Origin: Escherichia coli
GTDB lineage: Bacteria; Pseudomonadota; Gammaproteobacteria; Enterobacterales; Enterobacteriaceae
Length of the DNA: 64,000 bases
NCBI RefSeq assembly: GCF_009931435.1
Contig: NZ_CP043414.1
Strand: one strand, 5' to 3'
In this document: positions 49,501 through 52,500 of the stretch, piece by piece
Numbering within the stretch: the stretch's first letter is position 1
Layout: each line of letters opens with the position of its first letter
Position numbers: made by a program

Positions 49501-52500
49501 CAACAGACGGTGATTATCACGGGTCGTGGTTGTCATCGGGATATTCTTGAACTGGCGGATACGGTAAGTGAATTACGCCCCGTCAAACATGCGTTTGATG
49601 CCGGTGTTAAGGCGCAAATCGGGATTGATTATTAAGTGAAAGCACCTCAAAAGTTCGCCTCTTGAGGTGCTTTAATCATAATTATATTCAAGCGGCAATA
49701 GCAAAACTCAGAATCCGTTTAATCTCATTCAAATGTCCCGGATATGCTTCATGATTCTCAGCGTCAACATCTTCAATAAATAATATCAGTTCAGTAATTA
49801 ACGCATTGGCATCTTCATAACTGATTCCGCTTAACTCTGGCGAAGTTTCAGTACCGTAGTTAATCGTCAGATTGTTCATCACCGTGAGGATAAGGATAAA
49901 ATATTTATGACAAACCTTGCATGTGGTTTTGTTGCCCAGAGTATTATACAGCATATCAAGTAATGCCAGTATTCTACGGTTTTGTACATCGTTCATAAAA
50001 AGCCCCTCCTATAACATTATTCCGCTGGCAATAAGTAATTTCGCCAGCCCCTCAGACGCCTTTAACCCACTAATGACCTGTGCGCGTAATATTTCATTTA
50101 ATCTTTTTTGTTCAGCTGCCGTGCGTGTTTTATTAGTGTATAAACCTTTTAGATAATCACCCTTATCTATAAAGGCATTTAAAGCTTCAATCGCGGGCAT
50201 TGCAGCAGCCGATGCCTGTAGTCTGGTTTCATTCACATTGATTACTGAACTTAGAAACTCCTTCCTGTTTTTCAGAGTGTTAAACTCTGTATTCTTAGAG
50301 TTTTTAGATACCGCATTATAATAAAGCATATTATTATGTACATTCGCAAAGGTATAATTTTCAATCTTATCGCCTTTTGTATAAATATCATTACGCAAAA
50401 CAGTCATGTTTTTTATAAGTCTTACCCAATTTTTATCCGCCGTTTTACCTATTTTCCCGGCATTGACCTTTATTATATATAACTCATTGAAATAACTTAC
50501 TAAATCTTTAACCGCCGCTGCCGATTCAGCTAAATCTTTGCTATGTGAAACATCAAGTAGTGTTTGCGCGTTGTTTGCGTGATCCAGAGCCTGTTTAAGT
50601 AATGTCACTTGCTGACTTTCTGTAGTTTTTATGTCTTCAGTCAAGAGCTCTACATAAGCACTCATGCTATTAATGACTTCCATTGAAGCCAGTAGTTTCT
50701 CTTTTTCGAATGGGACTAATTGTACTTTATCTGTTTTTTCTTCAGGGGGCCTGCATAATTTCCCACCCTGACCATCGTTCGCAACATCAATGGTATAATC
50801 AGGTCGCAATGCACAATCCGGATTAGTCGCATAAAAATTAACAAGAAAGTTTTCACGAGAAGCATAGTATTGTTTAAAGAAACTTGCATTCGCCGCAACC
50901 GCCTTGTTACCCGCAGTAATAACAGTTTCAGCTTGTTCATTCTTCAATGCTTCGGTTGCACAACCTGAAAGCATTAACAGCGATAGAAATAATCCACTAT
51001 ATCTAATCATAACCCACCTCTTGACGTTGAGTTTATCTCAGATAATTAAATAGTAATGTGGCTATTCCCTGGCATTATTCATAAGCAAGTATGAAATTAA
51101 ATTAAAATACTGCGACTATTTATCATGCTTCAAATGAAGAAAAGGCCCCGCAGGGCCTTTATTTAATACTTAACTTAAATTAACCGTTATTATTACGTCC
51201 ACCAGAACGACGACCGCCGCTGACCTGGCTGTGACGTTTCACCGCACGACGAATTTGATTCGCCTTCATACGACGACGGTCTTTTTCTACAGCAACTTTA
51301 GAGCTGGTTTCTGGCGGTAGTTCCACCAGCTCACGCAGATAGTTAGTCTGGGCAAGATCCAGCTCAGTCCAGCCACCGCGTGGCAGACCTTTCGGCAGTG
51401 GGATATCACCGTAACGCACGCGGATCAGACGGCTCACCTGCACACCAACAGCTTCCCAAAGACGACGAACTTCACGGTTACGGCCTTCGGTCAGAGTAAC
51501 GTTGTACCACTGGTTGATCCCTTCGCCGCCGCTGAACTTAATGGTTTTAAAGGCTGCCGGACCATCTTCCAGCTGCACGCCACGACTCAAATCACGCAGT
51601 TTCGCGTCGTCAACCTGACCAAATACACGCACGGCATATTCACGTTCAACTTCACGGCTTGGATGCATTAAACGGTTTGCCAGTTCACCATCGGTGGTGA
51701 ACAGCAGCAGACCACAGGTGTTAACGTCCAGACGACCTACGGCAATCCAGCGTGCGCCACGCAGCTTTGGCAGACGGTCAAATACCGTTGGACGCCCTTC
51801 CGGATCGTTACGGGTACACAACTCACCTTCCGGTTTGTAATAGGCCAGAACGCGACAAATTTGTTCAGCGGACTCACGTACCGAAATCAGGTGACCATCG
51901 ATACGGATTTTCAATCCAGGGGTAATTTCAACACGATCGCCGAGTTTAGCAATTTTGCCATCAACACTCACACGACCGGCTTCAATAATAGATTCGATTT
52001 CACGGCGAGAACCGTGGCCGGCACGCGCCAGCACTTTCTGTAGCTTTTCGCTCATAGAGCTTCCTTTTGGTGTCGCCTTCCCAGGCGTCGAACAGGAGAA
52101 TCAATGGCGCAGTAGAGCGCCATTTTAAGGCCGCGTAGTATACAGAGTTAAGCACTTATAAAAAAGGCTTCACATCACCTACGCCTTCACGCAATACGAC
52201 TGGCGTATCATCGGTGAGATCAATAACCGTTGTCGGTTTCTGCCCGAGATAGCCGCCGTGAATAATCAAATCCACCTGTTTTTCCAGACGGTCTTTAATT
52301 TCTTCCGGATCGGATTCGGTAAATTCACTGCCTGGCAGCATTAGCGAAGTGGAAAGCATCGGTTCGCCCAATGCTTCAAGCAACGCCTGCGCAATTGGGT
52401 TAGAAGGCACACGCATACCGATGGTTTTGCGTTTTTCCTGCAACAGACGGCGTGGCACTTCCTTCGTCCCCTTCAGGATGAAAGTGTAGTTACCCGGCGT

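What the first reader, a model, noticed from the sequence alone, without database searches (positions are those of the whole stretch)
49688..49996. 102-aa island protein may be the cytoplasmic partner of the lipoprotein
This ORF has the strongest ribosome-binding site of the pair (AGGAGG) and sits 12 nt downstream of the lipoprotein gene, so it is probably real and co-expressed. It lacks a signal peptide, contains a CKVCH motif followed by a hydrophobic stretch (YFILILTVM), and has an acidic C-terminal half. A small partner encoded immediately after a larger envelope protein is the arrangement seen in toxin/immunity and sensor/effector pairs. That reading is inference; taken alone the ORF could be an unrelated small protein.
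Basis: inference. Interest (0 to 1): 0.4.

Follow-up and report, generated by a model that had tools for sequence, protein, structure and literature searches.

The report
Orphan lipoprotein plus small-protein operon
The 102-codon ORF is a real, conserved gene for a small cytoplasmic four-helix-bundle protein that is always inherited with the outer-membrane lipoprotein gene just upstream, forming an uncharacterised two-gene operon carried by about a quarter of E. coli strains; its function is still unknown.

Summary
The ORF at 49688-49996 (-) starts 12 nt after the lipoprotein gene, and its AGGAGG Shine-Dalgarno overlaps that gene's TAG stop. This junction is conserved in every allele examined.

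Both genes occur in the same number of complete E. coli genomes, 1234 of 5426. They sit at the same rluB-cobO site in E. albertii, E. whittamii and a Citrobacter lineage. A 35%/26%-identical pair lies in a low-GC cargo patch of a PFGI-1-class ICE. Both genes are under purifying selection (dN/dS 0.1-0.3).

AlphaFold2 gives a confident four-helix bundle (pLDDT 88.9). The protein is acidic and has no signal peptide or transmembrane segment. "YFILILTVM" is a core helix. Only Cys26, Cys29 and His88 of the "CKVCH" region are family-invariant, so it is not a haem-c site.

Neither protein matches Pfam, NCBIfam, PADLOC, PHROGs or PDB sequences. K-12, B and CFT073 lack the pair.

Genetic partnership is strongly supported. 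A toxin/immunity or sensor/effector mechanism is untested. The small protein does not co-vary with the lipoprotein's variable middle. My working model, at low confidence, is an envelope-acting variable lipoprotein with a cytoplasmic protective partner.

The parts
49688..49996 (-). Small gene: 102-aa acidic four-helix-bundle protein, second cistron of the operon
   Evidence: ORF. AF2 pLDDT 88.9, pTM 0.83, helices 3-21, 27-44, 60-78 and 82-100. dN/dS 0.09-0.19. Present in 1234 of 5426 E. coli genomes.
50005..50010 (-). AGGAGG Shine-Dalgarno of the small gene; overlaps the lipoprotein TAG stop (50009-50011) and lies 8 nt before the ATG
   Evidence: Sequence. The TAGGAGG junction is conserved in all Escherichia and Citrobacter alleles; the ICE copy has TAA-N5-GGAGG.
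50009..51010 (-). Lipoprotein gene: 333 aa, signal peptide plus lipobox LSGC, Cys17, Ala at +2; mostly helical
   Evidence: ORF. The lipobox is conserved in all homologues, including the ICE copy. AF2 model is helical but low-confidence, pLDDT 54.8.
50723..50794 (-). Hypervariable loop of the lipoprotein (codons 73-96), lying just after Cys66 and containing Cys86
   Evidence: pN/pS is 0.5-1.0 here against 0.03-0.3 elsewhere; DNA identity is 39-56% against at least 86% between otherwise close alleles.
51015..51020 (-). GAGGTG Shine-Dalgarno of the lipoprotein gene
   Evidence: Sequence.
51134..51167 (-). Terminator-like hairpin after rluB; separates the pair from the upstream rluB transcript
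   Evidence: inverted repeat I6.
49639..49673 (.). 15-bp-arm hairpin between the convergent cobO and small genes; probable bidirectional terminator
   Evidence: inverted repeat I2, 93% complementary, 5-nt loop; sequence.

Best explanation
The ORF is the second cistron of a self-contained, low-GC, two-gene operon inserted between rluB and cobO.

Shown:
- Cistron 1 encodes a lipoprotein precursor with a conserved lipobox and Ala at +2, which predicts Lol sorting to the outer membrane. It has two further conserved cysteines and a hypervariable loop. The alleles are mosaic and ancient.
- Cistron 2 begins 12 nt later, with a strong SD overlapping the upstream stop codon. This implies translational coupling and at least stoichiometric synthesis.
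- Cistron 2 encodes a soluble, acidic (pI 4.8), signal-less four-helix bundle.

Inferred:
- The invariant Cys26-x2-Cys29 at the N-terminus of helix 2 and His88 in helix 4 lie at the same end of the bundle. They probably form a Zn or redox site.
- The lipoprotein is the envelope-acting, selection-exposed component.
- The small protein is its dedicated cytoplasmic protective or neutralising partner, immunity-like. It would guard the producer's cytoplasm against the lipoprotein's activity, whether from the precursor or delivered by siblings, as CdiI does for Sec-exported CdiA.

My probabilities by step: the gene is real and expressed, about 0.95; it is an obligate functional module with the lipoprotein, about 0.85; it is a cytoplasmic four-helix bundle, about 0.8; it has an immunity-like protective role, about 0.25.
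For: Operon anatomy.

Co-occurrence: the small gene is in 1234 genomes and the lipoprotein gene is in 1234 genomes. The pair is found in all 17 metagenome contigs that are long enough and intact enough to show both genes. It lies at the same rluB-cobO site in E. whittamii, E. albertii and Citrobacter-like contigs.

The only remote homologue of the small protein among 1.84 billion representatives (P0042, E = 2e-7) lies 14 nt after a 26%-identical lipoprotein homologue (E = 2e-32). That copy sits in a 32%-GC cargo patch of a PFGI-1-class ICE.

Purifying selection acts on both genes. The small protein is acidic and the mature lipoprotein slightly basic (pI 8.2).

In four independent cases the lipoprotein gene is broken while the small gene is intact. 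The one broken small gene I could examine sits beside a lipoprotein gene that IS1 has truncated at its 5' end.
Against: - No sequence or family link to any immunity, antitoxin or toxin family.
- The lipoprotein has no recognisable catalytic or pore-forming motif, and its model is poor.
- The small protein is more conserved than the lipoprotein (75/65/35% against 63/51/26% identity). It does not co-vary with the lipoprotein's variable middle, unlike classical cognate toxin/immunity pairs.
- No orphan copies of the small gene occur elsewhere in genomes (median one place per genome).
- The 4:0 disruption asymmetry is not significant, because the target sizes differ 3.2:1.
- The mature lipoprotein and a cytoplasmic protein occupy different compartments.
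Confidence: 0.27

Rival explanations
1. Two-layer exclusion or defence module. The outer-membrane lipoprotein blocks entry of foreign DNA (phage adsorption or injection, or conjugative mating-pair formation) at the envelope; its hypervariable loop sets specificity. The small protein acts independently in the cytoplasm on the same invader. This would be analogous to the adjacent traS-traT exclusion genes of F or to prophage superinfection-exclusion lipoproteins (Cor, Llp).
For: - The remote copy is cargo of a conjugative element and lies beside an Mrr-type restriction gene in the same low-GC patch.
- Distribution within E. coli is patchy (23%). Alleles are far older than the flanking core genes: dS is saturated or 0.85, against 0.1-0.3 for rluB and cobO.
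- The variable loop fits an arms race at the cell surface.
- Under this model the small protein need not co-vary with the lipoprotein.
Against: - No hit to TraT, any Sie family, or any PADLOC or PHROG model.
- Absent from viral contigs.
- The rluB-cobO site is not listed in the one E. coli defence-hotspot survey I checked.
- The site carries only this pair, an IS element or nothing, so it is not a variable-cargo hotspot.
- Most copies are chromosomal with no mobile element nearby.
Confidence: 0.2
2. Accessory or regulatory partner. The small Cys/His four-helix bundle is a cytoplasmic holder for the pre-lipoprotein before Sec/Lol export, or a redox- or zinc-responsive modulator of the operon's expression through a host factor. 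No toxicity is involved. The lipoprotein would be an ordinary envelope or host-interaction factor.
For: - The small protein is the better conserved of the two and is insensitive to lipoprotein allele swaps.
- A CxxC motif at a helix N-terminus together with an invariant His is typical of Zn or redox switches (established knowledge, for example ZAS anti-sigma factors and Hsp33).
- Translational coupling suits a stoichiometric chaperone.
Against: - An acidic protein with no DNA-binding motif is unlikely to be a direct transcription factor.
- No sigma factor or regulator gene lies nearby.
- E. coli lipoproteins do not normally need private chaperones.
- No family hit supports this reading.
Confidence: 0.18
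3. Envelope-triggered suicide module. The small four-helix bundle is a membrane-disrupting executioner of the MLKL / plant CC / HeLo type, released or activated when the lipoprotein senses envelope damage.
For: - The N-terminal helix is the most conserved surface in Escherichia and Citrobacter.
- The ICE cargo sits next to a restriction gene.
Against: - Sequence identity is 8-13%.
- The protein is stand-alone, with no sensor or NLR domain.
- An outer-membrane lipoprotein has no evident route to signal to the cytoplasm.
- The N-terminal motif is only partly kept in the ICE homologue.
Confidence: 0.05
4. Unrelated passenger. The small gene is a real gene that is merely co-transcribed with the lipoprotein gene and has no functional link to it.
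For: - There is no co-variation with the lipoprotein's variable region.
- The two proteins are predicted to occupy different compartments.
Against: The pairing, spacing and stop/SD arrangement persist down to 26-35% identity and across two unrelated genomic contexts, chromosomal site and ICE. Neither gene was ever found without the other in 1234 genomes.
Confidence: 0.1

Closest known systems
Cytoplasmic immunity proteins encoded directly downstream of exported toxins (nuclease-colicin Im7/Im9, Pfam PF01320; CdiI of contact-dependent inhibition)
   Same: Small (about 85-130 aa), acidic and signal-less. Im7 and Im9 are four-helix bundles. The gene lies immediately 3' of the larger exported protein's gene and is co-transcribed. 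The producer's large protein is exported while the small one stays cytoplasmic. Distribution is patchy and the loci are allele-rich.
   Different: No HMM match. The upstream protein is a lipoprotein with no known cytotoxic domain. The small protein is more conserved than its partner and does not co-vary with its variable region. There are no orphan immunity arrays.
F-like plasmid exclusion cassette traS-traT (TraT is an outer-membrane lipoprotein whose specificity is set by a short variable segment)
   Same: A two-gene cassette of an outer-membrane lipoprotein plus a small protein. It is carried on a conjugative element (the ICE copy here). A short hypervariable segment lies in an otherwise conserved lipoprotein.
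   Different: No similarity to TraT (no Pfam hit). The small protein is soluble, not an inner-membrane protein like TraS. The gene order is reversed. Most copies are chromosomal with no conjugation genes.
MLKL / plant CC (RPW8, Rx) / fungal HeLo four-helix-bundle executioner domains
   Different: Identity is 8-13%, and designed bundles score equally. This protein has no attached sensor domain. Membrane activity has not been tested.
Zinc-binding anti-sigma (ZAS) domains, for example RsrA
   Same: About 100-aa cytoplasmic helical bundle with Cys/His ligands, including a CxxC motif; acts as a redox or zinc switch.
   Different: The ZAS motif is H-x3-C-x2-C, whereas here it is C-x2-C followed 58 residues later by His. 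No ECF sigma gene is adjacent. No HMM hit.
Prophage superinfection-exclusion lipoproteins (Cor of phi80/N15, Llp of T5)
   Same: Accessory, low-GC, patchily distributed outer-membrane lipoproteins thought to face phage selection.
   Different: Those proteins are small (about 60-80 aa), are encoded by phages, and have no cytoplasmic partner. This pair is absent from phage collections.

Membership tests
Colicin/pyocin nuclease immunity (PF01320) or other Pfam Imm families | Sequence match to the family HMM | tested here: not met
   No Pfam hit at E <= 1 for the window, JJ1886, Citrobacter-like or ICE versions.
Colicin/pyocin nuclease immunity (PF01320) or other Pfam Imm families | Upstream gene encodes a recognisable toxin domain | tested here: not met
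   The lipoprotein has no significant hit in Pfam, NCBIfam or PDB sequences.
Colicin/pyocin nuclease immunity (PF01320) or other Pfam Imm families | Immunity co-diversifies with the toxin's variable domain | tested here: not met
   L004 and L030 carry small proteins 94-98% identical to the window's next to lipoproteins only 63-68% identical.
Colicin/pyocin nuclease immunity (PF01320) or other Pfam Imm families | Protects against the partner's toxicity | not testable with these tools
   Needs expression and competition experiments.
c-type cytochrome (CxxCH haem-binding) | Conserved CxxCH motif | tested here: not met
   The His after CxxC is Lys in P0042.
c-type cytochrome (CxxCH haem-binding) | Signal peptide for periplasmic haem attachment | tested here: not met
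   The N-terminus is helix 1 of the bundle at pLDDT above 90. The h-region is interrupted by Asp14. The RR pair is absent from the ICE homologue.
   Maximum KD19 is 1.06, and 0.22 in the ICE homologue. The segment is polar in homologues.
ZAS anti-sigma factor | HxxxCxxC motif and an adjacent ECF sigma gene | tested here: not met
   The motif order is C-x2-C...H. The neighbours are rluB and cobO.
TraT surface-exclusion lipoprotein | Match to the TraT family HMM | tested here: not met
   No Pfam or NCBIfam hit.
Known anti-phage defence systems (PADLOC 2.0) | HMM match of either protein | tested here: not met
   Searches gave no hits for either protein of the pair.
MLKL/CC/HeLo executioner four-helix bundle | Specific structural similarity beyond a generic bundle | tested here: inconclusive
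MLKL/CC/HeLo executioner four-helix bundle | Membrane permeabilisation on activation | not testable with these tools
   Needs toxicity and liposome assays.
Bacterial lipoprotein (neighbouring gene) | Signal peptide with a lipobox [LVI][ASTVI][GAS]C | tested here: met
   LSGC, ISGC and LSSC are conserved in all homologues.
Bacterial lipoprotein (neighbouring gene) | Lipidation and outer-membrane sorting | not testable with these tools
   Ala at +2 predicts Lol export to the outer membrane (established rule). Palmitate or globomycin assays and cell fractionation are needed.

The most novel reading that the evidence does not exclude
The pair is a previously unrecognised envelope-triggered cell-suicide or defence module. 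The stand-alone 102-aa protein would be a bacterial counterpart of the MLKL / plant CC-NLR / HeLo four-helix-bundle membrane executioners. It would be held inactive, perhaps by its Cys2-His site, until the variable outer-membrane lipoprotein reports phage or conjugative attack.
Probability: 0.04. Interest if true: 0.8.

Novelty: new variant of a known kind. Interest (0 to 1): 0.35.

Why it matters
About 23% of complete E. coli genomes carry a conserved two-gene operon whose products belong to no described family. Carriers include the pandemic ST131 lineage (JJ1886, SE15), STEC isolates and gut-metagenome strains. K-12, B and CFT073 all lack it, which probably explains why it has never been studied.

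Several features resemble loci involved in conflict with phages, mobile elements, competitors or the host. The alleles are ancient and mosaic. The lipoprotein has a hypervariable loop. A copy has been captured as ICE cargo next to a restriction gene. If the module proves to be an exclusion, defence or antagonism system, it would add a new lipoprotein-based architecture. If not, it is still a lineage-restricted envelope factor of clinically important clones. K-12 is a natural null background in which to test it.

Tried and rejected
- Haem-c site: CxxCH is not conserved and there is no export signal.
- Tat signal from 'NRRILALL': the RR pair is absent from the ICE homologue, and the segment is a confident bundle helix.
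- Transmembrane reading of YFILILTVM: rejected.
- The small protein as a duplicated domain of the lipoprotein: hhalign probability 0.1%.
- Family assignment by Pfam, NCBIfam, PADLOC, PHROGs or PDB sequence profiles: nothing significant.
- Wider homologues: an exhaustive HMM search with the small protein found one remote relative. Word-indexed searches and scans of genome, viral and metagenome contigs with the lipoprotein found only Escherichia/Citrobacter alleles at the same site.
- Plasmid hits are very likely chromosomal DNA filed as plasmid: a 4.9-Mb record, a 252-kb record and a fragmentary match on a 33-kb record from the same isolate, all predicted non-mobilizable.
- Rfam found nothing in or around the operon.
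- There are no flanking direct repeats or att-like sites.
- Literature: no paper cites the RefSeq accessions, and the site is not in the one E. coli defence-island survey I checked, main text or supplements.
- Disruption asymmetry (four lipoprotein-only events, zero small-only) is suggestive but not statistically meaningful.
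Full report
**Setting.** The window is an Escherichia coli chromosome segment ordered topA-yciN-sohB-yciK-cobO(btuR), then two extra genes, then rluB-yciO-rnm(trpH)-trpLED. The finding is the 102-codon ORF at 49688..49996 on the minus strand. It lies 12 nt downstream of a 333-codon ORF (50009..51010, minus strand) whose product starts MIRYSGLFLSLLMLSGC|ATEA. That is a canonical lipoprotein signal peptide and lipobox, with Ala at +2.

**Checking the observation.**
- All the sequence statements are correct. AGGAGG sits at 50010..50005, overlaps the lipoprotein TAG stop and lies 8 nt before the ATG.
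- The lipoprotein gene has its own good SD (GAGGTG), so both cistrons are well equipped for translation.
- A terminator-like hairpin follows rluB (51134-51167). A 15-bp-arm hairpin (49639-49673) lies between the convergent cobO and small genes. The pair is therefore an autonomous transcription unit.
- GC content is 33-40% across the pair, against 50-56% in the flanks.
- Residues 52-102 hold 10 acidic and 2 basic residues. Whole-protein pI is 4.81.

**Is the gene real?** Yes.
- RefSeq annotates the same two CDSs as "hypothetical protein".
- blastn finds the small gene in 1234 of 5426 complete E. coli genomes, with at least 80% coverage in 1232. It finds the lipoprotein gene in 1234, all with at least 80% coverage.
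- Pairwise dN/dS is 0.09-0.19 for the small gene (the three pairs with appreciable, unsaturated dS) and 0.15-0.30 for the lipoprotein gene.
- Every metagenome contig long enough and intact enough to show both genes carries both (17 of 22 loci; one more, L038, has no flanks).

**Distribution and evolution.**
- K-12 MG1655, B REL606 and CFT073 lack the pair; in each, rluB and cobO/btuR are adjacent, with a 39-bp spacer. One strain has an IS1 at the site instead.
- Carriers include ST131 (JJ1886), SE15 and CDC clinical isolates from human stool.
- At least three deeply divergent allele groups exist. The small protein is 75-98% identical among them and the lipoprotein 63-92%.
- Between the window and JJ1886 alleles, synonymous divergence is saturated for the small gene and 0.85 for the lipoprotein gene. 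The flanking rluB and cobO differ by dS of only 0.1-0.3. The alleles are therefore much older than the species' core divergence, or were imported from other species.
- The alleles are mosaics. The window and L004 are 99% identical over 49695-50094, which covers the small gene and the last ~30 lipoprotein codons. They are only 60-77% identical over 50095-50694 and 43% in the hypervariable loop window (50695-50773). L030 shows the same pattern.
- Lipoprotein codons 73-96 begin just after Cys66 and include Cys86. They are hypervariable, with pN/pS of 0.5-1.0 against 0.03-0.3 elsewhere.
- The pair sits at the same rluB-cobO site in E. whittamii and E. albertii. In the E. albertii type strain the lipoprotein gene is frameshifted and the small gene is intact.
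- It is also at that site in Citrobacter sp. ANG330-like contigs, where identity is 51% (lipoprotein) and 65% (small protein).
- No mobility genes or flanking repeats are present. This is a conserved presence/absence locus, not a recently inserted mobile island.

**The remote copy.**
- An exhaustive profile search of 1.84 billion representative proteins found only one relative outside this group: P0042, 95 aa, E = 2e-7, 35% identity.
- P0042 lies 14 nt after a 347-aa lipoprotein that is 26% identical (E = 2e-32) to the window lipoprotein.
- The two genes, with an oppositely oriented Mrr-type restriction gene, form a 31-32% GC patch inside a 56-60% GC integrative conjugative element of the PFGI-1/ICEclc class. 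That element carries TraD, a DtrJ-like gene and the TIGR037xx gene set.
- The pairing, order, short spacer and strong SD after the stop codon survive this divergence and change of context. This is the strongest evidence that the two genes work together.

**What the small protein is.**
- AlphaFold2 on a 15-sequence alignment gives a confident up-down-up-down four-helix bundle (pLDDT 88.9, pTM 0.83). The helices span residues 3-21, 27-44, 60-78 and 82-100.
- The "hydrophobic stretch" YFILILTVM is the core of helix 2. It is polar in homologues, and KD19 peaks at 1.06, so it is not a membrane segment.
- The N-terminus is helix 1 of the bundle, not a signal peptide.
- The family-wide invariant residues are M1, N2, Q5, L16, N22, C26, C29, S52, E54, I58, A63, N64, I67, T68, E69, L70, L72, F73, I74, D76, H88 and I92.
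- His30 of "CKVCH" is Lys in the ICE copy, so this is not a haem-c motif.
- Cys26-x2-Cys29 at the start of helix 2 and His88 early in helix 4 lie at the same end of the bundle. A Zn or redox site is a reasonable inference, but I had no access to model coordinates to check the geometry.
- There was no structural match in BFVD, and no sequence match in Pfam, NCBIfam, PADLOC, PHROGs or PDB.

**What the lipoprotein is.**
- It has no family hits. It is unrelated to the small protein (hhalign probability 0.1%).

**Mechanism.**
- Shown: a translationally coupled bicistron; an exported and probably outer-membrane lipoprotein with a fast-evolving loop; and a soluble, acidic, Cys/His-bearing cytoplasmic four-helix bundle that is never found without it.
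- Inferred: they act in one process.
- I rank an immunity-like protective role first (about 0.27). The arrangement is topologically coherent in the way CdiI/CdiA is. The small protein is acidic and the mature lipoprotein basic. In the broken copies I examined, the lipoprotein gene is the one lost while the small gene persists: IS1 insertions, the E. albertii frameshift and the fragmented ICE copy L014. The one disrupted small gene I could examine accompanies an IS1-truncated lipoprotein gene. With a 3.2:1 difference in target size, this 4:0 pattern is not significant.
- Evidence against that model: the small protein is the more conserved partner, it tolerates lipoprotein allele swaps, and no toxin-like feature is detectable.
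- A two-layer exclusion or defence module (about 0.2) fits the ICE cargo context and the ancient variable alleles. It lacks any family support. The site is not in the one defence-hotspot survey I checked, and the pair is absent from phage data.
- A chaperone or redox-regulator role (about 0.18), an unrelated-passenger reading (about 0.1) and an MLKL-like executioner role (about 0.05) remain possible.

**Novelty and verdict.** The proteins exist in databases only as "hypothetical protein", and I found no paper on them. The genetic partnership is well supported. The specific toxin/immunity or sensor/effector reading is not yet supported. This is a genuine, lineage-restricted, uncharacterised two-gene module of moderate interest, and it can be tested directly in K-12, which is a natural null.

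Noticed in passing
window 52056-52155 (between rluB 51180..52055 and yciO 52156..52812): The window strain lacks yciQ, a 1.9-kb DUF2207 gene that sits between yciO and rluB in K-12, JJ1886 and CFT073. Strain R32_14_1F and the Citrobacter-like contigs L006 and L010 lack it too. In REL606, yciQ is split by IS1.
   Followed up: partly
window 50723-50794 (lipoprotein codons 73-96): Hypervariable loop lying just after Cys66 and containing Cys86. pN/pS is 0.5-1.0 against 0.03-0.3 in the rest of the gene, and the loop has length variation between alleles. This suggests an exposed, selected surface.
   Followed up: yes
window 49695-50094 versus 50095-50773; loci L004 and L030: A recombination breakpoint lies inside the lipoprotein gene. 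The small gene plus the last ~30 lipoprotein codons move as one block (99% identity), while the middle of the lipoprotein gene is only 60-77% identical (43% in the hypervariable loop).
   Followed up: yes
L012 6943-9220 (ICE of PFGI-1/ICEclc class): The remote copy of the pair shares a 31-32% GC cargo patch with a divergently oriented Mrr_cat (type IV restriction-like) gene, inside a 56-60% GC ICE backbone. I did not identify the host species of this assembly (GCA_025881875.1).
   Followed up: partly
L016 2898-3919 (E. albertii NBRC 107761); L014 6946-7987; L020; L019: Independent inactivations of the lipoprotein gene (a frameshift, a fragmentation, and IS1 insertions in L020/H112 and in H130) leave the small gene intact. 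In strain MSB1_4I (L019), IS1 removes the lipoprotein gene's 5' end and an IS5 element splits the small gene.
   Followed up: partly
L011 3729-3767 (K-12 rluB-btuR spacer): Strains without the pair have a 39-bp spacer with its own hairpin (GCCGGATATGACGTCCGGC). It is unrelated to either end of the insert, so neither state looks like a simple excision scar of the other.
   Followed up: no
E. coli genomes and plasmids collections: One 'plasmid' copy in E. coli genomes and three PLSDB 'plasmid' hits. The PLSDB records are 4.9 Mb, 252 kb and a fragmentary match on a 33-kb record, all predicted non-mobilizable. They look like chromosomal sequence filed as plasmid rather than true plasmid carriage.
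   Followed up: partly
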